This document shows, piece after piece, positions 8,831-60,096 of a stretch of DNA of 64,000 nt. The stretch comes from Pristiophorus japonicus (Eukaryota): NCBI RefSeq assembly GCF_044704955.1, contig NC_091982.1, positions 111,972,001 to 112,036,000 of the forward strand. Direction: 5' to 3'. Both the position numbers and the translations under genes were made by a program. The notes below the pieces were generated by a model. It was not told where the DNA came from and did no database searches. It saw nothing but the letters and a program-made list of their open reading frames with translations. Position 1 is the stretch's first letter, and each line of letters opens with the position of its first letter.

Positions 8831-9095
8831 TGTCTGCCTCCATTAATGTTAAATATGTAAATCTAGATCTCTCATTTGAATGTAATTTTCATTTCAGTAT
8901 ACAGCATACAGTACTCCTATTGTGCATTTCTGGGTTTAAATCACAAGGTTGAGCACTTTTTTTCTGGAATGTGGCCATCACTGGCAAGGCCAGCATTTAT
9001 TGCCCATCCCTAATTGTCCTTGAGAAGGTAGTGGTGAACCGCCTTTTTCAACAGCTGCAGTCCCAGTGGCGAAGGTATTCCCACAGAGCTGTTAA

Positions 9096-9447
9096 ATGCA
9101 GGAAGAATGTTCTCGATGTTGGGGAAGTCCAGAACCAGGGGACACAGTCTAAGGATAAGGGGTAAGCCATTTAGGACTGAGATGAGGAGAAACTTCTTCA
9201 TTCAGAGAGTTGTTAACCTGTGGAATTCCGTACCGCAGAGAGTTGTTAATGCCAGTTTGTTGGATATATTCAAGAGGGAGTTAGATTTGGCCCTTACGGC
9301 TAAAGGGATCAAGGGGTATGGAGAGAAAGCAGGAAAGGGGTACTGAGGTGAATGATCAGCCATGATCTTATTGAATGGTGGTGCAGGCTCGAAGGGCCGA
9401 ATGGCCTACTCCTGCACCTATTTTCTATGTTTCTATGTTTCTATGTT
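9096..9447 (+). mobile_element. CR1 3' fragment nested in family B LINE
   Basis: LGKSRTRGHSLRIRGKPFRTEMRRNFF; (TTTCTATG)3 tail; TGTTA repeated at both junctions; host sequence resumes at ~9448. Confidence 0.9.
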
Positions 9448-10267
9448 AGAGAGGGAGATCCAGGATATTGACTCAGCGACGATGAAGGAACGACGATATA
9501 ATTCCAAGTCAGGATGGTGCGTAACATGGTGAGGAACTTGCAGGTGATGGTGTTCCCATTCGCCTGCTACCCTTATCTTTCTAGGTGGTAGAGGTCGGGG
9601 GTTTTGGAGGTGCTGTTGAAGAAGCCTTGGCGAGTTGCTGCATTGCATCTTGTAAATGGAACACAGTGCAGACACGGTACGCCAGTGGTGGAGGGAGTGA
9701 ATGTTTAAGGTGGTGGATGGGGCACCGATTAAGCGGGTTGCTTTGTCCTGGATGGTGTTGAGCTTCTTGAGTGTTATAGGAGCTGGAGCTGCACTCATCC
9801 AGGCAACCAGAGAGTATTCCCTCATACTCCTGAGTTGCGCCTCACCGATTGTGGAAAGGCTTTGAGGAGTCAGGAGGGGAGACACTCGTCGCAGACTACC
9901 CAGCCTCTGACCTGCTCTTGTGGCCACATTAATTATGTGGCTGATCCAGTTATGTTTCTGGTCAATGGTGATCCCCAAGATGTTGATGGTGGGGGATTCA
10001 GCAATGGTAATGCCGTTGTGGAGATAGTCATTGCCTGGCACTTGTGTGGCGCGAATATTAATTGAAACTTATCAGCCCAAGCCTGAATGTCGTCCAGGTC
10101 TTGCTGCATGCAGGCATGGGCTGCTCCATTATCTGAGGAGTTGCAAATGGAACTGAACACTGTGCACTCATCAGTGAACTTCCCCACTTTTGACCTTACG
10201 ATGGAGGGAAGGTCATTGATGAAGCAGCTGAAGATGGTTGGGCCTAGGACACTGCCCTGAAGAACTC

Positions 10268-11604
10268 AGTCCATTATTAAGGAAGCAGTAGCGGGACATT
10301 TGGAAAACTATGATTCAATCAAGCAGAGTCAGCATGGTTTATGAAAGGGAAAGCATGTTTGACAAATTTACTGGAGCACTCTGAAGATGTAACAAGCAGG
10401 GTGGATAAGGGGGAACCAGTGGATGTGGTGTATTTGGATTTCCAGAAGGCATTCAATAAGGTACCACATAAGAGGTTACTGCACAAATAAAAGCTCACAG
10501 GGTTGGGGGTAATATATTAGCATGGATAGAGGATTGGCTAACTAGCAGAAAAGAGAGTGTCGGGATAAATGGGTCATTATCCGGTTGCCAAACAGTGACT
10601 AGTGGGGTGTCGCAGGGATCAGTGCTGGGTCCTCAAATATTTACAATCTATATTAATGACTTGGGTGAAGGGACTGAGTGTAATGTAGCCATGTTTGCTG
10701 ATGATACAAAGCTGGGTGGGAACCAAAAGTGAGGACACAGAAAATCTGCAAAGGGATATAGACAGGCTAAGTGAGTGGGCAAACATTTGGCAGATGGAGT
10801 ATAATGTGGGAAAATGTGAGGTTACCCACTTTGGCAGTAAAAATAGAAGAGGAAATTATAATTTAAATGGAGAAAAATTGCAAAGTGCTGGAATACAGAG
10901 GGACCTGGGGGTCCTTGTGCATGAAACACAAAAAGTGAGTATGCAGGTACAGCAAGTAATCAGCAAGGCAAATGGAATGCTGGCCTTTATTGCAAGGGGG
11001 ATAGAGTATAAAAACAGAGAAGTCCTGCTACAACTGTACAGGGTATTGGTGATGCCACACCTGGCGTACTGCATACAGTTTTAGTCTCCGTATTTAAGGA
11101 AGGAGAAACTTGCATTGGAGGCTGTTCAGAGATTAGGTTCACTAGGTTGATTCTGGAGATGAGGGGGTTGACTTATGAGGATAGATTGAATAAGCTGGGC
11201 CTATACACATTGGAGTTCAGAAGAATGAGAGGTGATCTTATTGAAATTTAGAAGTTAATGAGGGGGCTCGAAAAGGTGGATGCAGAGAGGATATTTCCAC
11301 CCATAGAGGAAACTAAAACTCGGGGACATAAGGGGCCGCCTATTTAAAATTGACATGAGGAGAAATTTCTTCCTTCAGAGAGTTGTAAATCTATGGAATT
11401 CTCTGCCCCAGATAGCTGTGGAGGCTAGGTCATTGAATATATTTAAGGTGGAGATAATCAGATTTTTGAGCGATAAGGGAGTAAAGGGTTATGGGGAGCG
11501 AGCAGGGAAGTGGAGCTGAGTCCATGATCAGATCAACCATGATCTTATTGAATGGCAGAGCAGGCTCAAGGGGCCAAATGGCCTACTCCTGCTCTTATTT
11601 CTTA
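10268..11604 (+). mobile_element. CR1 RT/3' fragment (subfamily with TTCTTAT tail)
   Basis: Decayed RT (QHG, DFQKAF, FADD regions); 3' UTR GGGAAGTGGAGCTGAGTCCATGATCAG. Confidence 0.9.
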
Positions 11605-12522
11605 TATCTCGAAGTTTGCAGATGACACTAAGCTGGGTGGCGTTGTGAGCTGTGAGGAGGACGCTAAGAGGCTGCAGGTGACTTGGACAGGTTAGGTGAG
11701 TGGGCAAATGCATGGCAGATGCAGTATAATGTGGATAAATGTGAGGTTATCCACTTTGGTGGCAAAAACAGGAAGAATATTATCTGAATGGTGACAGATT
11801 AGGTAAAGGGGAGGTGCATTGGGACCTGGGTGTCATGGTACATCAGTCATTGAAGTTTGGCATACAGGTACAGCAGGCGGTGAAGAAGGCAAATGGCATG
11901 TTGGCCTTCATAGCTAGAGGATTTGAGTATAGGAGCAGGGAGGTCTTACTGCAGTTGCACAGAGCTTTGGTGAGGCCACACCTGGAATATTGTGTTCAGT
12001 TTTGGTCTCCAAATCTGAGGAAGGACGGTCTTGCTATTGAGGGAGTACAGCGAAGGTTCACCAGATTGATTCCCGGGATGGCCGGACTGACATATGAGGA
12101 GAGACTGGATCAACTGGGCTTGTATCCACTGGAGAGGATCTCATAGAAACATATAAAATTCTGACAGGATTGGACAGGTTAGAGGCAGGAAGAATGTTCC
12201 TGTTGCTGGGGGGTTCCAGAACCAGAGGTCACAGTCTAAGAATAAGGGGTAAGCCATTTAGGACTGAGATGAGGAGAAACTTCTTCACTCAGAGAGTGGT
12301 TAACCTGTGGAATTCTCTATCGCAGAAAGTTGTTGAGGCCAGTTTGTTAGATATATTTAAAAGGGAGGTAGATGTAGCCCTTATGGCCAAAGGGATCAAG
12401 GGGTATGGAGAGAAAGCAGGAAAGGGGTACTGAGGTTGAATGATCAGCCATGATCTTATTGAATGGTGGTGCAGGCTCGAGGGGTCGAATGGCCTGCTCC
12501 TGCACCTATTTTCTATGTTTCT
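11605..12522 (+). mobile_element. CR1 RT/3' fragment (subfamily with TTTCTATG tail), tandem with the previous copy
   Basis: Starts at AAGTTTGCAGATGACACTAAG (KFADDTK); VRPHLEYCVQFWSP; AACTC repeated at 10263-10267 and 12523-12527 around the pair. Confidence 0.9.
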
Positions 12523-14689
12523 AACTCCTGCAGCGATGTCCTGGGGCTTGGATGATTGACCTCCAACAACCACAACCATCTTCCTTTGTGCCAGGTATGT
12601 CTCCTGATTCTCATCAACTTCAATATTAATAGGGCTCCTTGATGCCACACTCGGTCAAATGCTGCCTTGATGTCAAGGGCAGTCACTCTCACCTAACCGC
12701 TGAATTCAGCTCTTTTATCCATCTTTGGACCAAGGCTGTAATGAGGTCTGGAGCTGAGTGGTCTTGGCAGAACCCAAACTTAGCATCGGTGAGCAGGTTG
12801 TTGGTGAGTAAGTGCCGCTTAATAGTACTATTGACGCCATCTTCCATCACATTGCTGATGATTGAGAGTAGACTGATGGGGCAGTAATTAGCCGGATTGG
12901 ATTTGTCCTGCTTTTTGTGGACAGGACATACCTGGGCAGTTTTTCACATTGTCGGGTATATACCAGTGTTGTAGCTGTACTGGTACAGCTTGGTTAGAGG
13001 CGCATAAGTCTTCAGCACAAGTCTTCAGCACAACAGTCGGGATGTTGTTGGGGCCCATAGCCTTTGCTATATCCAATGTGCTCAGCAGTTTCTTGATATC
13101 ATGTGGAGTGAATCGAATTGGCTGAAGACTAGCTTCTGTGATGGTGGGGACCTCAGGAGGAGGCCAATGTGGATCATCCACTCAGCACTTCTGGCTGAAG
13201 CTGGTTACAAATGCTTCAGCCTTGTCTTTTGCACTTGTATGCTGGGCTCTGCCATCATTGAGGATGGGAATATTCGTGGACCCTCCTCCTCCCGTTAGTT
13301 GTTTAATGGCCCGCCACCATTCACCTGGATGTGGCAGGACTGCAGAGCTGTGAAGTGATCCGTTGCTTGAGGGATCGCTTAGCTCTGTCTATAACGTTCT
13401 GCTTCCGCTGCTTAGCATGCACATAGTCCTGTGTTGCAGCTTCCCCAGTTTGGCACCTCATTTTTATATATGCCAGGTGTTGTTCCTGGCATGCTCTTCT
13501 GCACTCCTTATTCAACCAAGGTTGCTCCCCTGGCTTGATGGTAATGGTAGAGTGAGGGATATGCCGGGCCATGAGGTTACAGATTGTGGTGGAATACAAT
13601 TCTGCTGCTGCTGATGATCCACAGCACCTCACGGATGCCCAGTTTTGAGCTGCTAGATCTGTTCTGAATCAATCCCATTTGGCACGGTGGTAGAGCCACA
13701 CAACACGATGGCGGGTGCCCTCAGTGTGAAGACAGGACTTCGTCTCTACAGTGACTGTGCCATGGCCACTTCTGTCGATACTGTCATTGACAGATGCATC
13801 CGTGATGGGTAGATTGTTGAGGACAAGATCAAGTAGTTTTTTTCCCTCGTGTTGGTTCTCTCACCACGAGTCACAGACCCAGTCTGGCAGCTGTGTCCTT
13901 CAGGACTCAGCCAGTTTGGTCACATGGTGCTACAAATCCACTCTTGGTGATGAGCATTGAAGTCCCCCACCCAGAGTACATTCTGTGCCCTTGCTACCCT
14001 CAATGCTTCTTCCAAGTGGTGTTCAACATGGAGGAGGACTGATTCACCAGCTGTGGGTGGTAGGTGGTTTCCTTGCCCATGCTTGACCTGAAGCCATGAG
14101 ACTCCGTGGGATTCAGAGTCAATGTTGCGGACTCCCATGGCCACTCCCTCCTGACTGTATACCACTGTACTGGTACCTTGGGTGGGTCTGTCCAGTCGGT
14201 GGGACAAGACATACCCAGGGATGTTGCTGGAGGAGTCTGGGACATTTGCTGAAGGGTATCATTCTATTCATATGACTATGTCAGGCTGTTGCTTGACTAG
14301 GCTGTGTGACAGCTCTCCCAATTTTGCACAAGTCCCCAGATGTTAGTGGGGAGGACTTTGCAGAGTCGACTGGGCTGTGTGTGTCATGTCTGAAGGTTGA
14401 TGTCAGGTGGTCCGTCCGGTTTTATTCTTATTATTGTTTTCAGTAGCAGTTTGTTACAACTGAATGACTTGCTAGGCCATTTCAGAGGGCAGTTGAGAAT
14501 CAACCACGTTGCTGTGGGTCTGAAGTCACAGGTAAGCCAGACCAGGGAAGGACGACAGATTTCCTTCCCTAAAGGACATTAGCGAACCAGATGGGTATTT
14601 ACGACAATCCGATAGTTTCATGGTCACTATTATGATACCAGCTTTTTCTTCCAGATTTATTTAATTAACTGAATTTTAATTCCCCAGAT

Positions 14690-14780
14690 TCTGTGGTGGG
14701 ATTTGAACTCACGTCTCTGTATCATTAGTCCAGACCGCTGGATTACTTACTAGTCCAGTAACATAACCACTATGTTACCA
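14690..14780 (-). promoter_or_regulatory. tRNA-derived internal Pol III promoter at the 5' end of family B LINE
   Basis: Minus strand: A-box-like TAACATAGTGG; anticodon-arm-like CTGGA-CTAGTAA(GTAA)-TCCAG; B box GAGTTCAAATCC. Confidence 0.75.
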
Positions 14781-14802
14781 TTGCTGCATTTGTTTAAATA
14801 TT

Positions 14803-15504
14803 AGGCTCAATTTTGGCCAGGAGTTGCTCCATTTTTTTTGGAGTAACTTGATTTTTCTGGTGTATCTTAAAAATCCTCATTTTGCACATTCAATTTGCAT
14901 CAGTGTAAGTGAGTTAGTTACGACTTTTTTAGATTCATTTTTTTTCTCAATAGTTACTCCAAATCTACTTAGGCCAGCATATGTGGCCACTTCAGAAAAC
15001 CCTTGTGGAGAGTTAAGAAATCAGCGCAGGTAGATACATCGGAGGCCACTCGGCCTGGGATAGGTGTGAGATGACAACGCACCGGGAGACCACTCGGCCA
15101 GGGCTAGGGGCGGCAGCGATTGAACTGCTGACATCGGAGCACACACAGCGGCTGCAGGAAGCAAAATCACCGGAAAGGCTGCAACAGGCTGCAGCAAGCA
15201 AACGGCAAAACACAAGCAGCTACGTATCCCTTTAAAAATGGGCAATTGCCAAATTTCGGCGCCACTGCGCATGCACGGACATCGCGACCTGACTCCAATG
15301 CGCACATGCAGACGTCCTGGCACTGTTTTCAGTGCAGGACGCTGGCTCCGCCCCCGACTCAACTGGCCACACTGCGCAATGACTGGGGAGAGGCCAGACA
15401 GCGGCCAAAGTGGGGAGGAAATTTTTCGGCGCACTTCTGAACCGAGAAAATTGGCGCATCTCCGGTAAGTGCGCCAAAAAAGGGGGTGGGACAAAATTGA
15501 GCAC
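14803..15504. mobile_element. Harbinger-type MITE
   Basis: TIRs AGGCTCAATTTT / AAAATTGAGCAC; first ~150 nt homologous to 30550-30690; 3-bp flanks ATT/AAT. Confidence 0.7.
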
Positions 15505-15714
15505 AATGTAGTTACAGCAAAATAATTGCTCTGATGGACGTCTAACAGCTGCTAGTCTATTACAGCTATCAGTGTTACGTTAAAATATCAACATTTTCAA
15601 ATGGAACCATTTTTCTGTGGATAATAAAACTAATGTTCCTAGCAAGACCTCTGTTACTTTCTTGTGGAGATGGTACAAGGAGGGAGAGTCAGTCTGTGGG
15701 ATAATTTAGGGCAC

Positions 15715-16170
15715 AGCACTCAAGAAGCTTGGCTCCATCCAGGACAAAGCAGCCCGCTTGATCGTCAGCCCATCCACCACCTTCAACATTCACTCCCTCC
15801 ATTAACACAGCACAGTGGCTACAGTGTGTACTGCCCACAGGATGCACTGCAGCAACTTGCCAAGACTTCTTCGGCAGCATCTCCCAAACCTGCGACCTCT
15901 ATCACCTAAAAGACAAGGGCAGCAGGTGCATAGGAACACCATCCCCTCCAAGTTCCCCTTCAAATCACACACCATCCTGACTTGGAAATATATCGGCCGT
16001 TCCTTCATCGTCGCTGGGTCAAAATCCTGGAACTGCCTCCCTAACAGCACTGTGGGAATACCTTCACCACAGGGACTGCAATGGCTCACCACCATCTTCT
16101 CGAGGGCAATTGGGATGAGTAATAAATGCCTGTCTTGCTAGCGACGTCCATATCCCAAGACTGAATAAAA
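15715..16170 (+). mobile_element. Family B LINE 3' fragment
   Basis: HCSNLPRLLRQHLPNLRPL; ends GGCAATTGGGATGAGTAATAAATGCC. Confidence 0.85.
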
Positions 16171-16214
16171 GAATGGAGAGAGGTATGTGAGTGTGGCAGG
16201 GAGTGAGTATCAGA

Positions 16215-16560
16215 TACATTTAACACTGAGCCACAGAAGAAATTAAGGCAGATGATCAAAAGCTTGTTTAAGGAGATGGGTTTTAACAAGCATCTTAAAG
16301 GACAGAGAGGTAGGGAGACGTAAAGGTTTAGAGAGGGAGTTCCAGAGTTTAGGGCCCAGGCAGCTGAAGGCACGGCCACCAATGGTTGAGCAGTCATAAT
16401 GAGGGATGTTTAAAAGGCCAGAATTTGAGGAGGGCAGACATCTTGTGGGATTGTGAGGCTGAAAAAGATTACAGAGATAGGGAGGGGCAAGGCCATGGAG
16501 TGATTTGTAAACAAGGATGAGAATTTTGAAATCAAGGCATTGTTTAACTGGGAGGCAATG
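16215..16560 (-). mobile_element. L2-like LINE 3' fragment
   Basis: Homologous to 24691-25615, 41855-42740 and 49565-49880. Confidence 0.65.
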
Positions 16561-20269: not shown

Positions 20270-20972
20270 CATCATCATCATAGGCAGTCCCTCGGAATCG
20301 AGGAAGAATTGCTTCAACTCTTAAAATGAGTTCTTAGGTGGCTGAACAGTCCAATACAAGAACCACAGTCTCTGTCACAGGTGGGACAGATAGTCGTTGA
20401 GGGAAGGGGAAGGTGGGACTGGTTTTTTCGCACGCTCTTTCCACTGCCTGCGCTTGATTTCTGCATGCTCTCGGCGTTGAGACTCGAGGTACTCGGCACC
20501 CTCCTGGATGCACTTCCTCCACTTAGGATGGTCTTTGGCCAGGGACTCCCAGGTATCAGTGGGGATGTTGCATTTTATCAGGGAAGCTTTGAGGGTGTCC
20601 TTGTAACGTTTCCGCTGACCCCCTTTGGCTCGTTTGCCGTGAAGGAGTTCCGAGTAGAGCGCTTGCTTTGGGAGTCTCGTTTCTGGCATGTGAACTATGT
20701 GGCCTGCTCAGCAGAGCTGATCAAGTGTGGTCAGTGCTTCAATGCTGGGGATGTTGGCCTGGTCGAGGACACTAATGTTGGTGCATCTGTCCTCCCAGGG
20801 AATTTGTAGGATCTTGCGGAGACATCGTTGGTGGTATTTCTCCAGCGACTTAAGGTGTCTACTGTACATGGTCCATGTCTCTGAGCCAGATAGGAGGGCA
20901 GGTATTACTACAGCCCTGTAGACCATGAGCTTGGTAGCAGTTTTGAGGGCCTGGTCTTCAAACACTCTTTTC
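20270..20972 (-). mobile_element. RTE LINE 3' fragment
   Basis: YRAVVIPALLSGSETWT, RLPKQALYSELLHGKR; (GAT)n tail; TSD-like TACTGAAGT on both sides. Confidence 0.9.
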
Positions 20973-23945: not shown

Positions 23946-24622
23946 TTTTTAGAACACATTCTCAGAATGTGGGCTTCCCTGGCAAGGCCGGCATTTATTG
24001 CCCATCCTTAGTTGCTCTTAACTGCTCTTACTAGGCATCTTCAAAGGGCAGTTAAAAGTCAACCACGTTGGTGTGAGACTGGAGTCACATATAGGCCAGA
24101 CTGGTTAAGGACGGCAGGTTTACTTCCCTAAAGGGCATTAATGAACTAGTTGAGTTTTAATGACAATCCGGTAGTTTCATGGTCACTTTTACTGATACCA
24201 GCTTTTTATTTCCAATTTCTTTTACAACTGGCTTCAAATTCTCAAACTGACATGTTGTGATTTGAACTCCCTTTCTCTGGATTATTAGTCCGGTAATGTA
24301 GCCTTTAGCTGGACTGGTTCTTGACTGGGGCAAAGATGGCATCTTACAGAAGGTAAATGGATTAGCAGATAACACATGATCCACGGGATCTTTTCGACAC
24401 ATCTCGATTGCCTGAGGGGATCGGAGAGGAATTTCCCACAGTTTTTTTCTCCCTTGTTGGCCCTGGGTTTTGCCTCTCCCAGGAGATTATACGCCTGTGA
24501 TGTGAGGTAGGAAGTGTCGAGTCACGATGCTCTGGCCATCATGAGTGTGGGGCAGGCTTGATGGATCAGCTGGTCTTTTTATGCCTGTCATTTTCATATG
24601 CTCGTATAACCATTGCACTATT
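23946..24622 (-). mobile_element. tRNA-derived SINE = family B LINE 5' ~320 nt + family B 3' tail (head interrupted by a CR1 3' piece)
   Basis: 24020-24300 aligns by eye with 14460-14760; 23946-24019 aligns with 8957-9022; B box GAGTTCAAATC on the minus strand at ~24259-24269. Confidence 0.85.
24303..24604 (+). mobile_element. CR1 3'-UTR fragment inserted in the SINE head
   Basis: CGATTGCCTGAGGGGATCGGAGAGGAATTT...GGGTTTTGCCTCTCCCAGGAGAT is a reverse-complement match to ~50210-50325; CR1-like terminal hairpin. Confidence 0.65.
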
Positions 24623-24690
24623 GCATGCTGCAATGTTTGGTCGCCTGCAGCTGCGACAGCAGGAGGTGGAGGGCTGAGAACAGCACTGAA

Positions 24691-25615
24691 ACAACAACTT
24701 ATATTTATATAGCGCCTTTAACATAGTAAGATATCCCAAGGTGCTTCACTGAAGCATTATCAGACAAAATTTGACATGGAGCCACATAAGGAGATATTAG
24801 GACAGGTGACCAAAAGCTTGGTCAAAGTGATACTGTTACCCGTCAATCTCCTTTCTCCTCTGGATCACCATAACACGTTTTGAATAAGTGCGAGACTTCG
24901 TAGTGGAGGATATGGAACAGACTTTAGTGATACACGGTAAAGGTGATCACCCTTAACTGTATACAGAGAGTGGCTTTTTGGTTACAAGTTCTATCTTTCG
25001 AGCCGTCTGATATACTGTTGAAAGCGATGATCCGTTATACACCATATTTTGACTACATCGAAGGAAAATGCCATAGATAAGACTGTATGACATATCTGCT
25101 CATAAACATTTTTTTTAAACTATTCATGTAAACAGTTATAGTTTGTTTACTTCAAAACTACTTCCCTTAAACAAGATTTCCTGAGCTAACTGTCTCTAAA
25201 CCCTTTGAAGAATAGGCTTTCTCAACCGTCATCTTTCCATACAATAGCTAATGAATACTCTAGCTATATTTATTACTTTAAAACTAAACCGTAACCACTC
25301 ATAGTGACACCATTACTGTCATGTATTTGCTTACACAAACACTTTTTGCATCAGAAAACAAGTCATGCTTTCTTCTCAAGACACTTCAAAGGCATCCTGT
25401 TTATTTTGGAAAGCCTGGGAAGCCTGTTGCCTCAAGACACAAAGAAGTTCGACTGTTGAACTTTAACTCCCCAATCTCTCCAGGATGTTCAACAGATAGG
25501 TATTAAGAAGTGTCTTAAAAGAGGAGAGAGAGGTAGCGAGGCGGAGAGGTTTAGGGAGGGAATTCCAGAGCTTAGGGCCTAGGTAGCAAAGGCATGGTCG
25601 CCAATGGTGGAGTGA
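24691..25615 (-). mobile_element. L2-like LINE 3' end, split by a solo LTR
   Basis: Tail AACAACAACTTATATTTATATAGCGCC; ...GGTCAAAG resumes as ..AGGTATTAAGAAGTGTCTTAAAAGAGGAG at 25495, matching the uninterrupted copy at 42070-42110. Confidence 0.75.
24834..25494. mobile_element. Solo LTR (661 bp)
   Basis: Termini TGTT...AACA; flanks GATAC/GATAG (5-bp TSD, one mismatch); cleanly interrupts an L2 copy; no coding sequence. Confidence 0.7.
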
Positions 25616-26649: not shown

Positions 26650-27654
26650 CAGAAAACCAGCGCAATGCTGAGCGCAGTTTGCATCCGATTTGCCAATTAC
26701 ACCCAAAGCCGAAATTCTACCCCATGAACTCCCGTACCTCGTAAACCCACGACCTCTACCATCTAGAAGGACAAGGGCAGCAGGCGCATGGGAACACCAT
26801 CACCTCTACATTCCCCTCCAAGTTACACACCATCCTGACTTGGCAGAATATCGCCGTTCCTTCATCGTTGTTGGGTCAAAATCTTGGAATTCAATACCTA
26901 ACAGCATTATGGGAGTGCCTTCACCACCCGGACTGCAGCGGTTCAAGAAGGCGACTCACCACCACCTTCTCAAGGGCAATTAGGGATGGGCAATAAATGC
27001 TGGCCTTTCCAGCGACACCCACAACCCAGCAATGAACAAAAAACAAACCAAAGTATACTGGAGCAGCTTCCCAAAATGATTCAGTTGATTCTTGACAAAC
27101 ACACACTAGATTGCCAACTTGATGTGCATTGTTGGAGCAGCCCACTATGGAAGTCATGTGCTTGAGAGGTTTACTCTGAGCCAAAGCACTTCTGCAAGCT
27201 TTCTGGAGGAGTTTTGCTACTTCTTGCTTGGCTTGCTGATGGGAGAATTGCAAAATAATGAGAGCCTCTATTTATGAAAAGCCAAAGCTGAGGCACTCCA
27301 ACTAACTTAATCGATTCACACCTCTTTCTGGCCAATCGTAGGGCAGTTGTGAACATGGTTCAGGAAGGATGCTGAGGTCTAAACCAAAAGGGAAACCCAA
27401 AGTAACTCAAATGAAACTCTTTCATGTTAGTTTGTGAATATGGAAACTAACGATATACTGCCAAGTCAGGATGGTGTGTAACTTGGAGGGGAATGTAGAG
27501 GTGATGGTGTTCCCATGCGCCTGCTGCCCTTGTCCTTCTAGATGGTAGAGGTCGTGGGTTTACGAGGTACGGGAGTTCATGGGGTAGAATTTCGGCTTTG
27601 GGTGTAATTGGCAATTCGGATGCAAACTGCGCTCAGCATTGCGCTGGTTTTCTG
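26650..27654. repeat. 204-bp inverted repeat (arms 26650-26853 and 27451-27654, 597-bp spacer)
   Basis: Arms are reverse complements with 2 mismatches by eye. Confidence 0.95.
26735..27045 (+). mobile_element. Family B LINE 3' fragment
   Basis: NPRPLPSRRTRAAGAWEHHH; ends GGCAATTAGGGATGGGCAATAAATGCTGGCC plus A-rich tail. Confidence 0.85.
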
Positions 27655-29726: not shown

Positions 29727-30240
29727 CAGACGCACCAACGTCAGTGTTCTCGACCAGGCCAACATCCCCAGCATCGAAGTACTGACCGCACTCGACCACC
29801 TCCGTTGGGTGGGCCACATTGTTCGCATGCCTGACACAAGACTCCCAAAGCAAGCTCTCTACTTGGAACTCCTACACGGCAAGCGAGCCCCAGGTGGGCA
29901 GAGGAAATGTTTCAAGGACACCCTCAAAGCCTCCTTGATAAAATGCAACACCCGCACTGACACCTGGGAGTCCCTGGCCAAAGATGCCCTAAGTGGAGGA
30001 AGAGCATCCAGGAGGGCACTGAGCACCTCGAGTCTCGTCGCCGAGAGCATTCAGAAAGCAAGCGCAGGCAGCGGAAGGAGCGTGCGGCAAACCAGACTCC
30101 CCACCCACCCTTTCCTTCAACCACTGTCTGTCCCACCTGTGACAGACTGTGATTCCCGTATTGGTCTGTTCAGTCACCTGAGAACTCATTTTTAGAGTGG
30201 AAGCAGTCCTCGATTTCGAGGGACTGCCTATGATGATGAC
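29727..30240 (+). mobile_element. RTE LINE 3' fragment with 15-bp TSD
   Basis: LRWVGHIVRMPDTRLPKQALY; (GAT)n tail; TGGTGGTCTCACATG at 29712-29726 and 30241-30255. Confidence 0.92.
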
Positions 30241-30549: not shown

Positions 30550-31045
30550 GGTCTCAATTTTCACCAGTATTTGTGCCATTTTTTTTGGAGCAGGCTGCTT
30601 TTTCTGGCCCAACTTAAAAATCCCCAATTTCCCCAATCAATTTGCACCAGCGTAACTCAGTTAGTTACGAATTTTTTAAGTCATTTCTTTTTTCAGCCAA
30701 AGGGGGCGAAAGAGAGACCCGAACTGGCGACTGAGAATGGGCCCGCCCGGACAGCCTTCGGGCGGGGTTCGAGGTAAGGTGGTGTTTTTCAATTCTTTTA
30801 ATGTGCTGCGAGGTGGTTGTATGCTTCACTTTGCAGCCTCAGCTCGCATTATGACCCTGGTTACCATGGCAGCCCGATCTGTTTGACGCAGATCAAGGCT
30901 CCACCTCCCTCGGGTTAGGCCACGCCAAAATGAAGAGATCCAACGGGGAAACTTACAACACTTTTTTGGGGCATATTTGGGCCCCAAAAAATCAGGTGTA
31001 AATCTTCAAGTACGCCAAAAAAATGCTTTGGAGAAAATTGAGCGC
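30550..31045. mobile_element. Harbinger-type MITE (same family as 14803-15504)
   Basis: TIRs GGTCTCAATTTT / AAAATTGAGCGC; 3-bp TSD CAA. Confidence 0.75.
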
Positions 31046-40117: not shown

Positions 40118-41080
40118 TTACCGGCTCGTGGTGCTTTCCCTGCTCAAGTGCCGGCTCCGCACAAGGAAGCTTCCTGTCCGTGATAGCTGCTCTCTGAATT
40201 CGGAGGTGACAAAATAGTAGATGATCGGGTCCAAGCAAGCGTTCATGCTGGCTATGCACAGTGTGAATGAATGCAGGATCTGGATAGTCATCCGCACAGA
40301 GCAGTCCGTAATGATGTTCAGGCGTCTCAGCTGGTTCAGCGGGAAGAGTATGTGGTAGGGAGCAAAGCACACCAGGAACACGAGCGCACACATCAAGACC
40401 AGCTTCAGAGCCCGCCTTCCGCCTTGGTCGTTGTGCAGCGTACACTTCTGCTGCAATGACTGCATCGTTTTCCAGGTACAGGTGATGATGATGATGATGG
40501 GCCCCACAAAGCCCAGGAGCTCTGCCGCCGTCAGCATTAATACAGAGGATCCTAGGTTGACTTGCTTCATGGGTAGGTCAGCAAAACAGAGTGTGCTGTT
40601 GAAGGAGTCAGTGTTCCGCATGACGGGGAATGGCAGGCATATGACGATGACGACCACCCATCCAATAATGCTCAGGCACACATCGTACCTGCGTCTCCAG
40701 CTGTTGTATCTGAAGGGGTAGATGAGGAAAATACAGCGCTGGATGCTGATGCAGACTAAAAATAAGATGCTCGCGTACATGTTGACGAACTTTAGGTAGA
40801 AACAGAACAAGCACATGAATTTTCCAAACGGCCAGGTATGGGTTATATAGTAAAAGATCCTCAGCGGCAAGGACAACACGTGTGCCAAGTCAGCAAAGGC
40901 CAGGTTTATCATGAATATCACCGCCTTCTTCTCCCTTTTGATGTTCCCAAATAAAACCCACAAGGCCACGCTATTGCCGAAGAAGCCAGGAATGACGATT
41001 ATTCCGTAGACAATCGCGTACAGGCGCAGCTCGCCATCCCAGTGTTCCTCTGCGCACGGAACGGATGCATTGACTGACAT
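40118..41080 (-). CDS. P2RY10: P2Y purinoceptor 10-like class A GPCR (lysophosphatidylserine receptor), 320 aa
   Basis: Intact 7TM ORF. KAVIFMINLAFADLAHVLSLPLRIFYY, CFYLKFVNMYASI, CISIQRC (QRC in place of DRY), WRRRYDV, CLPFP, CFADL, CFAPYHI and LDPIIYYFVTSEFREQLSR closely match my recollection of mammalian P2RY10. Confidence 0.92.
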   Translation of the reverse strand: MSVNASVPCAEEHWDGELRLYAIVYGIIVIPGFFGNSVALWVLFGNIKREKKAVIFMINLAFADLAHVLSLPLRIFYYITHTWPFGKFMCLFCFYLKFVNMYASILFLVCISIQRCIFLIYPFRYNSWRRRYDVCLSIIGWVVVIVICLPFPVMRNTDSFNSTLCFADLPMKQVNLGSSVLMLTAAELLGFVGPIIIIITCTWKTMQSLQQKCTLHNDQGGRRALKLVLMCALVFLVCFAPYHILFPLNQLRRLNIITDCSVRMTIQILHSFTLCIASMNACLDPIIYYFVTSEFREQLSRTGSFLVRSRHLSRESTTSR

Positions 41081-41141
41081 TTTCCCCGAGCGTCAGGTTC
41101 TTTTTTTTTTGAGAGAAGTCTTTTACCAACTGCACGAGTTA

Positions 41142-46354: not shown

Positions 46355-47990
46355 GGACGGAATTTCCCTTACTGAGTCAGGTCGGGTGCGTGCGGGCTGT
46401 GTAGCAGGTCGTTACAGTGATGTATCGATCAGCCCATTTCTCAGAGCGGCTTTAGTGTAATGGCCCCTATTAAGGCAGACATGTGCATTTCCCGGCCCTA
46501 TTAGTTGGTGCGCGTCTGATGATGTCTAATTTCCAGCGATGACATCGGATTTAACGGTTCATGCAGGAGTGTGGAGGGAGGATTGGAGAGGAATGTCTTG
46601 TGGAGAAATAGAAACATGACTTCCCAAAGTCCGAGGGCTGCACCCAGGTTTTCAGAAGACTCCCTACATATTCTTGTGGAGAGAGTCAGAGCATGCAGGG
46701 AGGTCCCAGGGCAGAAGAGACCTCCCCAAGAGACAAAAAGAGCCTGGCTCCAAATTGCAGAGGAGGTGAAGAGCAGGGATGTGGTGAGGCGGACCTGGGT
46801 GCAGTGCAGGAAGATCTTCAATGATCTGATGAGATCAGGAAAGGTGAGTGCAAAGCCACACTCACCCTCATCCTGCTGTGCCTCTCATCACATCCCCATC
46901 ACTCTGCCTTCCAAAGCCTGCTCCTGTACATCCTTACTCACACCAACCTACCTTGCAATTCCACCCATCCCTCTCTCTCTACGTCCATACTCACACCCCC
47001 ATCTAACTAACCACCCCTCACACTCACCCTCATCCGAATGCAATCATACCAACTAACACCACAGGAAGAGACCATTTGGCATTGGCACCACACTCCCTCA
47101 CAGTCACCCTCCACAAATGTAACCCACACATTCCTTATGCTCATGCTACTACTCTCACTCAAATTTGTCTTCTTTCCCTCCTTGCAGAAGAGAGCGCACA
47201 GCAGCAGGGAATGGGAGTGAACCAGGGGTGTCCTGCCATTCTTCAGTACTATAACTGCAGCAGAGGAGGAGGCCCTGGAGGTGTCAGGGGCTGTGGAGCA
47301 GCTGGCAGTGGAAGAGGGAGCGAGGGGGACATCTCAGCAACCAGATGACAGAATTACATCTCATACAGCCACAGGACATACAGCAGTCACTCATAGGGGC
47401 ACTGACATCAGCAGCCAGTGAATGTTCATCATGTGCATAATGGTATAATTAACCATTCTTAACAGAACATTTCAAAATCATTTCTTTACTTTCCCATGGG
47501 TTCATCAAGAACCCCCCCACCACTCCCCCTCTCCCACTGTCCAGCTGGAGAAGGAAGACGACTCCTCAGAGGAGCCTCCAGCCTCTGAGGGTGCAGCGTC
47601 GGCAGACCCAAGCATGGTGGGTCCTGTGAGAGAGAGAATAATGCTGTCACCTGGTGTCTCACACTTCACAAGTGAACAAGAACAGATGATGTTGACAGGG
47701 ACAGCGGAGAGTGCAGAACGCTCCAAGCTCTGCTCAACTACATGCAGGATCACAATGAGCAAGTCTGCCCCTGCACAGTCTGAGGGAGCAGATTTTGGCG
47801 GGGCCATCAGAGGCTCCAAAACTCAGAGGACGTCCGCCAAAAATGTTTACGCTGTTGCAGCAGGGAAATGAGCAGCCTGCCTCTAGCTCTGCTGAAGCCA
47901 CAGGGGTTGCACCTCGTAGAAGCATGAGTAAGAGAAAGATGACACAGAAGTAGGTGCACACGGTAAGCACATAGGCGTTTAAAAAATGTT
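46355..47990 (+). mobile_element. Harbinger element fragment with spliced Myb/SANT-like DNA-binding gene (degenerate)
   Basis: RAAPRFSEDSLHILVERV..KRAWLQIAEEV..RRTWVQCRKIFNDL (46620-46843); donor AAG|GTGAGT at ~46843; acceptor TTTCCCTCCTTGCAG at ~47188. Confidence 0.7.
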
Positions 47991-49008: not shown

Positions 49009-49312
49009 TGATGAAGCAGCTGAAGATGGATGGGCCTAGGACACTGCCCTGAGGAACACCTGCAGCAATATCCTGGGGCTGAAATGATCTGGAGCACAAG
49101 TCTTCAGGACTACAGCTGGGGTGTTGACGGGACCCATAGCCTTTGTTGTATCCATTGCGCTCAGCTGTTTTTCGATATTACGGGGAGTGAATCTAATTGG
49201 TTGAAGACTGGCATCTGTGATGGTGGTGACCTCAGGAGGAGACTGAGATGGATCATCCACTCAGCACTTTTGGCTGAGGATGGTTGGAAACTCTTCAACC
49301 TTGTCTTTTGCT
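49009..49312 (-). mobile_element. Family B LINE internal fragments
   Basis: DDPSQSPPEVTTITDASLQPIRFTP..KAMGP; homologous to 10218-10267 and 13015-13230. Confidence 0.8.
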
Positions 49313-55967: not shown

Positions 55968-56697
55968 GGGGTGTCAACCGCGAGGGTCTTTGGAGCATCC
56001 TCCTCCGTTTCAGATGCCCCCAAAAGATTGTCACCATCCTCCGCCTGCTCCACGACAACATGCAGGCCGTGATCTTTACCAATGGATCCATCACAGACCC
56101 AATCAACGTCCGGACCGGGGTCAAACAGGGCTGCATCATCGCCCCAACCCTCTTCTCAATCTTTCTCGCCACCATGCTCCACCTCACAGTCAACAAGCTA
56201 CACATCTGTATCCACCCTCCTGTTTGGTCAGAGATATGGACCATGTACAGTAGACACCTCAAGTCACGAGAAAAATATCACCAACGATGTCTCCGCAAGG
56301 TCCTACAAATCCACTAGGAGGACAGACACACCAACATCAGCGTCCTCGTCCAGACTAACAGCCCCAGCATTGAAGCACTGAACAAACTCGATCAGCTCCG
56401 CTGGGCAGGCCACATAGTTTGCATGCCAGACACGAGACTCCCAAAGCAAGTGCTCTACTCGGAGCTCCTTCACGGCAAACAAGCCAAAGGTGGGCAGTCG
56501 AAATCAAGCGTAGGCAGCGGAAAGAGCGTGCGGCAAACTAGTCCCACCCATCCCTTACCTCAGCAACTATCTGTCCCACCTGTGACAAAGTCTGTGGCTC
56601 TCGTACTGAACTGTTCAGCCACCAGAGAACTCACTTCAGGAATGGAAGCAAGTCTTCCTCGATTCCAAGGAACTGCCTATGAATGACTATGAATGAA
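55968..56697 (+). mobile_element. RTE LINE fragment with internal deletions
   Basis: VRTGVKQGCIIAPTLFSIF; RLPKQVLYSELLHGK; RTE tail. Confidence 0.85.
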
Positions 56698-58024: not shown

Positions 58025-60096
58025 TGAATATTTGGACTACCAGAAGGCATTTGACAAGGTGCCACATAAAAGGTTACTGTACAAGATAAAAGTTCACAGG
58101 ATTGGGGGTAATATATTAGCATGTATAGAGGATTGCCTAACAAACAGAAAACAGAGAGTCGGGATCAATGGTTCATCCTCGGGTTGGCAATCAGTAACTA
58201 GTGGGGTGCAACAGGGATCAGTGATAGGACCCCAACTATTTACAATCTATATTAACGACTTAGAAAAAGGGACTGAGTGTAACGTAGCCAAGTTTGCTGA
58301 CGATACAAAGATGGAAGGAAAAGCAATGTGTGAGGAGGAAACAAAAAACCTGCAAAAGGACATAGAGAGGCTAAGTGAGTGGGCAAACATTTGGCAGATG
58401 GAATATCAGCAAGTGATTAGGAAGGCCAATGGAATCTTGGCCTTTATTGCAAAGGGGATGGAGTATAATAGCAGGGAAATTGTGAAGTCATGCACTTTGG
58501 CAGAAAAAAAATCGAAGAGCAGGTTATTATTTAAATGGAGAAAGATTGCAAAGTGCTGCAGTATAGCTGGACCTGAGGGTACTTGTTCATGAAACACAAA
58601 AGGTTAATATGCAGGTACAGCAAATGATTAGGAAGGCCAATGGAATCTTGGTCTTTATTGCAAAGGGGATGGAGTATAATAGCAGGGAAGTCTTGTTACA
58701 GTTATACAGGATATTGGACCATTTCCCATACCTCGGGAGCCTCTTATCAACAAGAGCAGACATTGACGACGAGATCCAACATCGCCTCCAGTGCGCCAGT
58801 GCAGACTTCAGCCGCCTGAGGAAAAGAGTGTTTGATGACCAGGCCCTCAAATCTGTCACCAAGCTCAAGGTCTACAGGGCTATAGTAATACCAGCCCTCC
58901 TGTATGGCTCAGAGACATGGACCATTACAGTAGACACCTCAAGTCGCTGGAGAAATACCACCAACGATGTCTCCGCAAGATCCTACAAATCCCCTGGGAG
59001 GACAGACGCACCAACATTAGCGTTCTCGACCAGGCTAACATCCCCAGCATTGAAGCACTGACCACACTTGATCAGCTCCACTGGGCAGGCCACATTGTTC
59101 GCATGCTAGACACAAGACTCCGAAGCAAGCACTCTACTTGGAACTCCTTCACGGCAAGCGAACCAAAGGTGGGCAGAGGAAATGTTACAAGGACACCCTC
59201 AAAGCCTCCCTGAAAAGTGCAACATCCCCACTGACACCTGGGAGTCCCTGGCCAAAGACTGCCCTAAGTGGAGGAAGTGCATCCGCCAGGGTGCTGAGCA
59301 CTTTGAATCTCATTGACGAGAGCATGCAGAAATCAAGTGCAGGCAGCGGAAAGAGAGTGCGGCAAACCTGTCCCACCCATCCCTTCCCTCAACGACTATC
59401 TGTCCTACCTGTGACAGGGACTGTGGTTCTCGTATTGGACTGTTCAGCCACCTAAGTACTCATTTTAAGAGTGGAAGCAAGTCTTCCTCGATTCCGAGGG
59501 ACTGCCTATGATGATGATTGGTGAGACCACATCTAGAATACTGCGTACAATTTTGGTTTCCATATTTAAGAAAGGATATATTTGCTTTGGAGGCAGTTCA
59601 GAGAAGATTCACTCGGTTGATTATGGAGATGAGGGGGTTGACTTATGAGGAAAGGTTGAATAGGTTGGGCCTCTACTCATTGGAATTCAGAAGAATGAGA
59701 GATGATCTTATCAAAACGTATAAAATTATGAGGGGGCTTGACAAGTTGGATGCAGAGAGGATGTTTCCACTGATAGGGGAGACTAGAATTAGGGAGCATA
59801 GTCTTAGAATAAGGGACCACCCATTTAAAACTGAGATGAGGAGGAATTTCTTCTCTCAGGGTGTTGTAAATCTATGGAATTCGCTGCCTCAGGGAGCTGT
59901 GGAAGCTGGGTCATTGAATAAATTTACGACAGAGATAGACAGTTTCTTAAACGATAAGGGAATATGGGGTTATGGGGAGCGGACAAGAAAGTGGACCTGA
60001 GTCCATGATCGGATCAGCCATGATCATATGAATTGGCGGAGCAGGCTCAAGGGGCCGTATGGCTTACTCCTGCTCCTATTTCTTATGTTCTTATGA
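58025..60096 (+). mobile_element. CR1 RT/3' fragment split by an RTE insertion
   Basis: LDYQKAFDKVPH, KFADDTK; resumes VRPHLEYCVQFW at 59518; TTCTTATG tail. Confidence 0.9.
58718..59516 (+). mobile_element. RTE LINE 3' fragment nested in CR1
   Basis: DHFPYLGSLLSTRADIDDEIQHRLQCA; (GAT)n tail; ATTGG duplicated at both junctions. Confidence 0.92.

What the first reader, a model, noticed from the sequence alone, without database searches (positions are those of the whole stretch)
23946..24622. SINE that looks like an internal-deletion derivative of the tRNA-headed LINE
Seen: head and body (24020-24300, plus 24605-24622) match the LINE's 5' ~320 nt. They join directly to the LINE's last ~65 nt (GGATGGGCAATAAATGCCGGCCTTGCCAG). 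Established: SINE/LINE pairs usually share only the 3' tail. Inference: either the SINE arose by deleting the ORF of a tRNA-headed LINE, or the LINE acquired the SINE's 5' part as its promoter. The retained body may be a functional RNA structure.
Basis: partly seen in the sequence, partly recalled or inferred. Interest (0 to 1): 0.7.

Follow-up and report, generated by a model that had tools for sequence, protein, structure and literature searches.

The report
SINE cut from a tRNA-headed LINE
In this shark-like genome a short non-coding jumping element looks like a 3.2-kb protein-coding jumping element with its middle cut out, and the long element unusually starts with the same tRNA-like promoter, which suggests a one-step way for such short elements to arise.

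Summary
Confirmed. The minus-strand element at 23955-24622 (about 375 nt without a 300-nt CR1-type insert in its head) splits with no leftover bases into the first ~328 nt and last ~62 nt of a decayed 3.2-kb, single-ORF APE-RT LINE at 8960-14785. Its identity to the LINE 5' end (82%) equals copy-to-copy identity within the LINE family (83-84%). The head-on-LINE layout is not confined to this copy: a 16%-diverged contig from another sample bridges body and LINE-only leader, and two whale-shark gene models carry body-derived peptide upstream of the APE start. Best reading: the SINE arose by internal deletion of a tRNA-headed LINE. No microhomology was found, and folding gave no support for a special body structure. 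The LINE's sense strand has no TTTT in 4.3 kb, a hint of Pol III transcription that controls weaken. Limits: one SINE copy, no genome, and the SINE head has one anticodon-arm unit where the LINE has two. It does not look like SacSINE1/Deu. Ten literature searches found no description; this scan has flagged the LINE family in other genomes.

The parts
24606..24622 (-). SINE head, 5' fragment with Pol III A box (24620-24610)
   Evidence: perfect match to the A-box consensus (consensus recalled); weak alone by alignment
24304..24605 (+). CR1-type 3' fragment inserted into the SINE head, opposite strand (ends +/-5 nt); not part of the SINE
   Evidence: its 3' end matches 5 of 5 CR1 3' ends tested, 4 of them with 0 of 500 shuffles as good; no protein-level match found
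24259..24303 (-). rest of SINE head: one anticodon-arm-like unit and B box (24267-24259)
24020..24258 (-). SINE body, shared with the LINE 5' leader
23955..24019 (-). SINE tail = last 3 codons, stop and ~50-nt stem-loop 3' UTR of the LINE
14458..14785 (-). LINE 5' module shared with the SINE: A box 14777-14767, two anticodon-arm-like units, B box 14708-14700, body
14360..14457 (-). LINE-only leader between the deletion point and the start of the APE domain
   Evidence: high summed depth and a bridging contig
12524..14359 (-). LINE ORF, APE and first part of RT, broken by stops and frameshifts; no ORF1 seen
   Evidence: (Exo_endo_phos_2 E 8.5e-5, below curated cut-off)
10278..12523 (+). two CR1 fragments inserted in the LINE ORF (not part of the LINE)
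9446..10277 (-). LINE ORF, second part of RT and C-terminal region
   Evidence: RVT_1 E 2.9e-10
9091..9445 (+). CR1 3' fragment inserted in the LINE ORF (not part of the LINE)
8960..9090 (-). LINE ORF end (stop at 9012-9010) and 3' tail; the SINE takes 9021-8960
15717..16170 (+). 5'-truncated copy of the same LINE
   Evidence: 83.0% identity to the main copy
26736..27041 (+). 5'-truncated copy of the same LINE
   Evidence: 83.7% identity
49009..49311 (-). internal fragment of the same LINE
   Evidence: 83.6% identity over 49093-49311

Best explanation
A ~3.2-kb non-LTR retrotransposon family of cartilaginous fishes begins with a tRNA-derived head (A and B boxes) and a ~240-nt body, followed by a ~100-nt leader, one APE-RT ORF and a short stem-loop tail. 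The element at 23955-24622 is a bipartite derivative of it: one internal deletion, most likely a template jump during reverse transcription, removed the leader and all but the last three codons of the ORF. What remains is a promoter plus the tail that the LINE protein recognises, i.e. a ready-made SINE copied in trans by the parent LINE. A CR1 fragment later inserted between its A and B boxes and disabled this copy. Shown: the homologies, the exact abutment, other LINE copies with the body, the insert. Inferred: direction of derivation, the template jump, mobilisation in trans, promoter activity, and amplification of the short form as a family.
For: No unassigned base at the junction. If a LINE had captured part of an existing SINE, the capture point could lie anywhere in ~310 nt, so landing within 3 nt of the tail boundary has roughly a 2% chance (my estimate). 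SINE-body to LINE-5' identity of 82.2% matches 82.7-83.7% among four LINE-to-LINE comparisons, so both come from one master lineage of similar age. No SINE tail sits between body and leader in the LINE, which a SINE insertion would have left. Run X5 record 19 (268 nt, different sample and study) spans 14394-14622 with 36 other letters, so it is another copy. 2 of 31 fetched proteins (P0009, P0019, both Rhincodon typus gene models) carry body-derived peptide (E 2e-7, 8e-7) upstream of the APE start. The LINE-only leader bin has summed depth 57,744 against 11.9 for a single-copy bin. Precedent for internally deleted LINE derivatives: PMC5786205.
Against: Only one SINE-type copy was seen, so the short form as a family is not shown here; no pile of loose ends or joint at 14458 is among the rows shown (24 loose ends shown, 7262 hidden; 15 joints shown, 1273 hidden). 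The SINE head has one anticodon-arm unit, the LINE head two, and a second copy in run X5 also appears to have two (table 5c): the SINE either lost a unit or branched before the duplication. Only 1 of the 32 listed contig pieces bridges the junction. The whale-shark evidence is from gene models, with the DNA distance unknown. No microhomology and no target-site duplication were found. tRNA origin is statistically weak: Rfam tRNA 15.9 bits, E 2.2; ARAGORN calls the insert-free head only at a threshold where 21 of 300 random pieces are also called.
Confidence: 0.62

Rival explanations
1. Capture: an older SINE with this head and body existed first, and the LINE acquired them as its promoter by template switching. 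A mixed history is possible: capture from an older SINE with another tail, then deletion giving this SINE.
For: The SINE's one-unit head is the canonical tRNA layout (A-to-B gap 40 nt against 58 in the LINE). Six contigs in run X5 leave the shared region at 14443 into a third sequence. SINE-like pieces in LINE 5' UTRs were put down to recombination for Ingi-3_AC in PMC5786205.
Against: Pure capture from this SINE does not predict that 5' homology ends exactly where the tail begins. Equal divergences give no sign that the SINE is older.
Confidence: 0.18
2. One-off: 23955-24622 is a single LINE copy that lost its middle during or after insertion and never amplified, so it is a deleted LINE, not a SINE family.
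For: It is the only head+body+tail copy in the window; database scans gave no second copy; no SINE-type joint among the rows shown.
Against: It keeps exactly the promoter boxes and the tail, as a selected element would. Earlier scan report e1-7806833 mentions such SINEs in another genome (unchecked lead, not evidence).
Confidence: 0.16
3. Chance adjacency: a SINE inserted just upstream of a 5'-truncated LINE at 14.5-14.8 kb, so the LINE family has no tRNA head.
For: The window is dense in nested repeats, and no target-site duplication frames the LINE.
Against: No SINE tail at the junction; bridging contig from another copy; two whale-shark gene models.
Confidence: 0.04

Closest known systems
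Bipartite LINE-derived SINEs and non-autonomous LINEs (Bov-A/Bov-tA, RIME, Vingi-1_EE derivatives, CoeSINE4, SINE2_Gav; PMC5786205)
   Same: Short element made of the 5' and 3' ends of its partner LINE.
   Different: There the tRNA head is added after the deletion, and only RTE, Ingi, Vingi and R2 are reported to give bipartite forms. Here the head is already part of the coding LINE, so deletion alone gives a SINE.
RTE-1_DAn and relatives (one sentence in PMC5786205)
   Same: An autonomous LINE that carries a tRNA-like sequence and hits SINE2 elements.
   Different: RTE clade; no shared body or deletion-derived SINE is described in the passages read.
SacSINE1 / LmeSINE1 Deu-SINEs of sharks and coelacanth (PMC5499810, PMC2746220)
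   Same: tRNA head, body and LINE-derived tail in cartilaginous fishes.
   Different: 463 bp with a Deu domain and an L2 tail, sharing only the tail with L2-2_CM. Here ~375 nt, no Deu motif found, and head and body are shared with the LINE. The SacSINE1 consensus itself was not available.
CR1-Zenon-like LINEs (named for whale shark in bioRxiv 10.1101/443036; SINE partners in bivalves, PMC11481361)
   Same: APE-RT LINE of the CR1 group present in sharks and able to donate SINE tails. The likeness of this protein to Zenon elements is recalled, not tested.
   Different: No tRNA head or shared body is mentioned in the passages read; most bivalve partner LINEs have an ORF1, none is seen here.

Membership tests
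tRNA-derived SINE (SINE2) | Internal Pol III A and B boxes in a tRNA-like head | tested here: met
   Perfect A and B boxes 40 nt apart once the insert is skipped; 0.7 such pairs per shuffled window. Cloverleaf support weak.
tRNA-derived SINE (SINE2) | 3' tail shared with a partner LINE | tested here: met
   44 of 50 and 44 of 52 identical to two LINE 3' ends
tRNA-derived SINE (SINE2) | Short and non-coding | tested here: met
   About 375 nt; longest stop-free frames inside it are under 45 codons
tRNA-derived SINE (SINE2) | Many interspersed copies of the short form | tested here: inconclusive
   One copy in the window; no genome held; contigs too short to show the joint
tRNA-derived SINE (SINE2) | Target-site duplication | tested here: inconclusive
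   None found; the copy is old, so it may have decayed
Bipartite LINE derivative | Consists only of the 5' and 3' ends of one autonomous LINE | tested here: met
   No unassigned base at the best split; one 21-nt head unit differs
Bipartite LINE derivative | Parent belongs to RTE, Ingi, Vingi or R2 (the reported producers) | tested here: inconclusive
   An APE domain argues against R2; no significant match to RTE-like pieces in the window; no Ingi or Vingi reference at hand
DeuSINE (SacSINE1) | Deu domain in the body | tested here: not met
   22-nt Deu motif, up to 3 mismatches: 0 matches in the window; no likeness by eye to the Deu part of BivaMD-SINE1. Limited test: the shark consensus was not readable.
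DeuSINE (SacSINE1) | L2-derived tail | tested here: inconclusive
   Tail scores 70 against this LINE and 15 against the neighbouring 3' end at 24685-24840 that I call L2-like from recall; no L2 reference from a tool
MetaSINE | 66-bp Meta domain right after the head | tested here: inconclusive
   No likeness by eye to bivalve Meta sequences in the supplement of PMC4824008; not aligned by program; vertebrate members not seen
V-SINE (HE1) | V domain and HER1/CR1 tail | tested here: inconclusive
   Tail scores 13 against a window CR1 3' end; V domain compared by eye only with bivalve sequences
CR1-Zenon clade (parent LINE) | RT phylogeny groups with Zenon elements | not testable with these tools
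   No clade references; RT piece only 32% identical to window CR1; nearest Atlas clusters are unnamed eukaryotic ones, commonest Arthropoda
Pol III-transcribed element (parent LINE) | No T4+ terminator on the sense strand | tested here: met
   0 runs in 4323 nt; controls weaken the inference
Pol III-transcribed element (parent LINE) | Transcripts made by Pol III from the head | not testable with these tools
   Only contigs are held, no raw RNA reads

The most novel reading that the evidence does not exclude
The parent is an autonomous, protein-coding LINE transcribed over 3.2 kb by RNA polymerase III from its own tRNA-derived promoter, kept free of oligo-T terminators by selection, and it gives birth to SINEs by a single deletion. 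SINE heads and bodies can then be the 5' ends of Pol III LINEs, and the body may help translate an uncapped RNA.
Probability: 0.3. Interest if true: 0.85.

Novelty: new variant of a known kind. Interest (0 to 1): 0.58.

Why it matters
The origin of SINE bodies is an open question: PMC5786205 notes that no sequence similar to the conserved SINE bodies has been found, and that only RTE and Vingi were seen to contribute 5' parts. A LINE family that shares head, body and tail with a SINE gives a direct, testable one-step route from LINE to SINE. If the head really drives the LINE, it breaks the textbook split of Pol II for LINEs and Pol III for SINEs (stated in PMC10886601) and asks how a Pol III RNA is translated. 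The family is abundant and seen in three named shark genera, so the test is cheap.

Tried and rejected
No whole genome is held, so the genome-wide census was not possible. ARAGORN at default settings found no tRNA in the window. Scans for related loci with alignment A1 confirmed none of 213 pattern hits in metagenomes and none of 58 in viral contigs. DNA motif scans gave 0 in viral contigs, 6 in metagenomes and 3 in prokaryote genomes; all 9 matched little beyond the motif and were dropped as chance. A protein search with the 64-codon frame across the junction found no candidate; a search for full-length ORFs gave one partial hit. No RNA holder listed. Depth ratios between parts of the element were not used as copy number or expression, as the tool warns. 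My first reading, that this is SacSINE1/Deu (stated), was dropped. A special fold of the body was not supported. Target-site duplications: none convincing for SINE, LINE or insert. In one search two of five CR1 control pieces were out of frame; the control was redone and only that one is used. Sequence look-ups in earlier findings gave nothing relevant. Supplements of PMC5499810 could not be read and may bear on the SacSINE1 comparison.

Full report
Setting. The window is rich in CR1-type LINE fragments, and the named close protein relatives of the LINE studied here all come from sharks, so I treat it as cartilaginous-fish-like. No whole genome is held.

The observation. On the minus strand, 24291-24027 aligns to 14731-14468 (blastn E 1.7e-51; 212 of 258 columns). 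24014-23965 aligns to 9016-8967 (44 of 50; 0 of 1000 shuffles as good) and to two more LINE 3' ends. The partner is a LINE running from about 14785 to 8960. Without two stretches of inserted CR1 it is 3225 nt long. It has one broken APE-RT ORF (RVT_1 E 2.9e-10; Exo_endo_phos_2 E 8.5e-5, below cut-off) that starts about 430 nt from the 5' end and stops at 9012-9010. The 300-nt gap in the SINE head is a CR1-type 3' fragment on the other strand: its end matches 5 of 5 CR1 3' ends tested, 4 with 0 of 500 shuffles as good. The 17-nt piece beyond it is weak by alignment (33 of 1000 shuffles) but holds a perfect A box.

The junction. A scan over 40 split points puts the best split at SINE 24020/24019, LINE 14458 and LINE 9021, with no unassigned base, for both LINE tails tried. 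The SINE thus keeps the first ~328 nt of the LINE, drops the ~100-nt leader and nearly the whole ORF, and resumes at the last three codons and the ~50-nt 3' UTR. No microhomology of 2 nt or more is visible, though copies are ~17% apart. The tail folds into a stem-loop of 14 predicted pairs in four copies, one pair with a change on both sides: consistent with a recognition hairpin, weak as proof. SINE body to LINE 5' identity is 82.2%; four LINE-to-LINE comparisons give 82.7-83.7%.

The head. Both elements have A and B boxes (consensus recalled). The pair occurs at two places in the unedited window, one being the LINE head, against 0.7 hits per shuffled window. Whole-tRNA scores are weak: Rfam tRNA 15.9 bits, E 2.2; ARAGORN calls the insert-free SINE head only at 80% threshold, where 21 of 300 random pieces are called too. 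The heads differ: the LINE has two tandem anticodon-arm-like units (A-to-B gap 58 nt), the SINE one (40 nt). A contig of run X5 also appears to hold two units (table 5c). This counts against simple descent from this exact LINE subfamily.

Is the head a family trait of the LINE? Three lines say yes. (1) There is no SINE tail between body and leader, and a retroposed SINE brings its tail. (2) In one search (window 13400-16300, 80% likeness, 4 of the 7 runs listed, all contigs; X1 and X3 are one sample and may be the source of the window) record 19 of run X5, from another sample and study, spans 14394-14622 with 36 other letters and 2 gaps. That is 64 nt on the LINE-only side of the junction, and too diverged to be this locus. 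It is 1 of 32 pieces listed; 243,676 are hidden. The LINE-only leader bin has summed depth 57,744 in X1 against 11.9 in a single-copy bin; I use this only to say it is high-copy. (3) Of 31 proteins tested, two whale-shark gene models carry body-derived peptide upstream of the APE start: P0009 (E 2e-7) and P0019 (E 8e-7). Their DNA could not be fetched. Of 19 distinct hits looked up, 11 are Rhincodon typus models; two more hits are named Heterodontus francisci and Scyliorhinus. Three earlier scan reports from other genomes describe a 3.2-3.3 kb LINE with such a head; they are unchecked leads, not support.

Is the short form a family? Not shown. It is the only head+body+tail copy in the window, database scans found no other, and no SINE-type joint or pile of loose ends at 14458 is among the rows shown, where contigs average under 100 nt and most rows are hidden.

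Direction. Under deletion, the SINE is by construction LINE 5' plus LINE 3', as seen. Under capture of an existing SINE by the LINE, the capture point could lie anywhere in ~310 nt, and landing within 3 nt of the tail boundary has roughly a 2% chance (my estimate). I put deletion with amplification at 0.62, capture or a mixed history at 0.18, a one-off deleted copy at 0.16 and chance adjacency at 0.04. The one-unit head and six contigs that leave at 14443 into a third sequence keep the mixed history alive.

Pol III hint. Prompted by earlier finding e1-7807155, I counted T runs. The LINE sense strand has 0 runs of four or more T in 4323 nt over five copies, against 4.1 expected from dinucleotide shuffles (P 0.01) and 23 in 8761 nt of CR1. 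T4 versus A4 is 0/24 against 23/63 (Fisher P 0.003), and the two longest T4-free minus-strand stretches of the window are the LINE's two large pieces. Against: with synonymous codon shuffles the LINE gives 0 versus 2.7 (P 0.034), in-frame CR1 ORFs are depleted too (12 versus 19.8, P 0.012), and RTE-like copies have only 2 runs in 1927 nt. TTT is depleted in the LINE (8 versus 13.5) but not in CR1 (77 versus 77). This is a lead, not a demonstration.

Body structure. The LINE and SINE bodies fold no better than shuffles (z -0.09, -0.93), their predicted structures differ, and a two-sequence consensus has 2 of 47 pairs changed on both sides.

Comparison with what is known. [quoted passage not shown] PMC5499810 (parts 1-3 of 6; supplement unreadable) and PMC2746220 (passages) describe SacSINE1 as a 463-bp Deu-SINE with an L2 tail. 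I first read the element that way and dropped it: a Deu motif is absent and the body does not resemble by eye the Deu, Meta or V sequences in the supplement of PMC4824008 (parts 2-3 of the text; supplement parts 1-2 of 4). Earlier findings that recalled Deu-type SINEs as closest may share that error. bioRxiv 10.1101/443036 (passages) names CR1-Zenon-like LINEs in whale shark, and PMC11481361 (passages) names them as SINE partners; that this LINE is Zenon-like is my recall and could not be tested (RT piece 32% identical to window CR1; Atlas neighbours unnamed). PMC3747384 (passages) lists shark SINE-LINE pairs as HE1/HER1, SacSINE1 and SINE2-1_CM; PMC10886601 (passages) states the Pol II/Pol III split. 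Ten searches listed no paper on a tRNA-headed shark LINE or its deletion-derived SINE; I judged most listings by title and abstract start, and Repbase, Dfam and subscription journals were not searchable.

Verdict. A real and well-defined feature: a SINE-like element that is the two ends of a tRNA-headed LINE. New variant of a known kind; interest 0.58, limited by a single short copy and by the family having been flagged before in this scan. If the LINE proves to be Pol III-driven (0.3), interest would be 0.85.

Noticed in passing
window 14384-14578 (-): A 64-codon stop-free frame runs from the shared body through the LINE-only leader and is in frame with the APE start apart from one stop. Whale-shark model P0009 shows another frame just before the APE, so this may be chance. 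No clear AUG.
   Followed up: partly
window 14443 (run X5): Six contigs leave the shared region 15 nt into the LINE-only leader and go on into a third, unknown sequence: possibly another element with the same body.
   Followed up: no
window 14742-14745: A 4-nt duplication in the LINE head is absent from many other copies (table 4), so it is probably private to this copy.
   Followed up: partly
window 26650-26853 and 27451-27654: 204-nt inverted repeat at 99% identity, 597 nt apart, that includes a piece of the LINE 3' region: a recent inverted duplication or an assembly artefact.
   Followed up: no
window 40118-41092 (-): Intact 324-codon ORF that reads like a P2Y/LPA-type G-protein-coupled receptor (label from recall).
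   Followed up: no
window 46523-47056 (+): Frame resembling a Myb/SANT-like protein of Harbinger-type transposons (label from recall).
   Followed up: no
window 20271-20884, 29727-29984, 56228-56503, 58740-59518: Copies of an RTE-like LINE (label from recall), also poor in T runs: 2 runs in 1927 nt.
   Followed up: partly
window 14806-15500: Another high-copy repeat lies directly upstream of the LINE head (match to 30553-30695; high depth).
   Followed up: no
window 23951-23967 (-): The SINE's last bases form a perfect 8-bp hairpin not seen in the three LINE tails.
   Followed up: no
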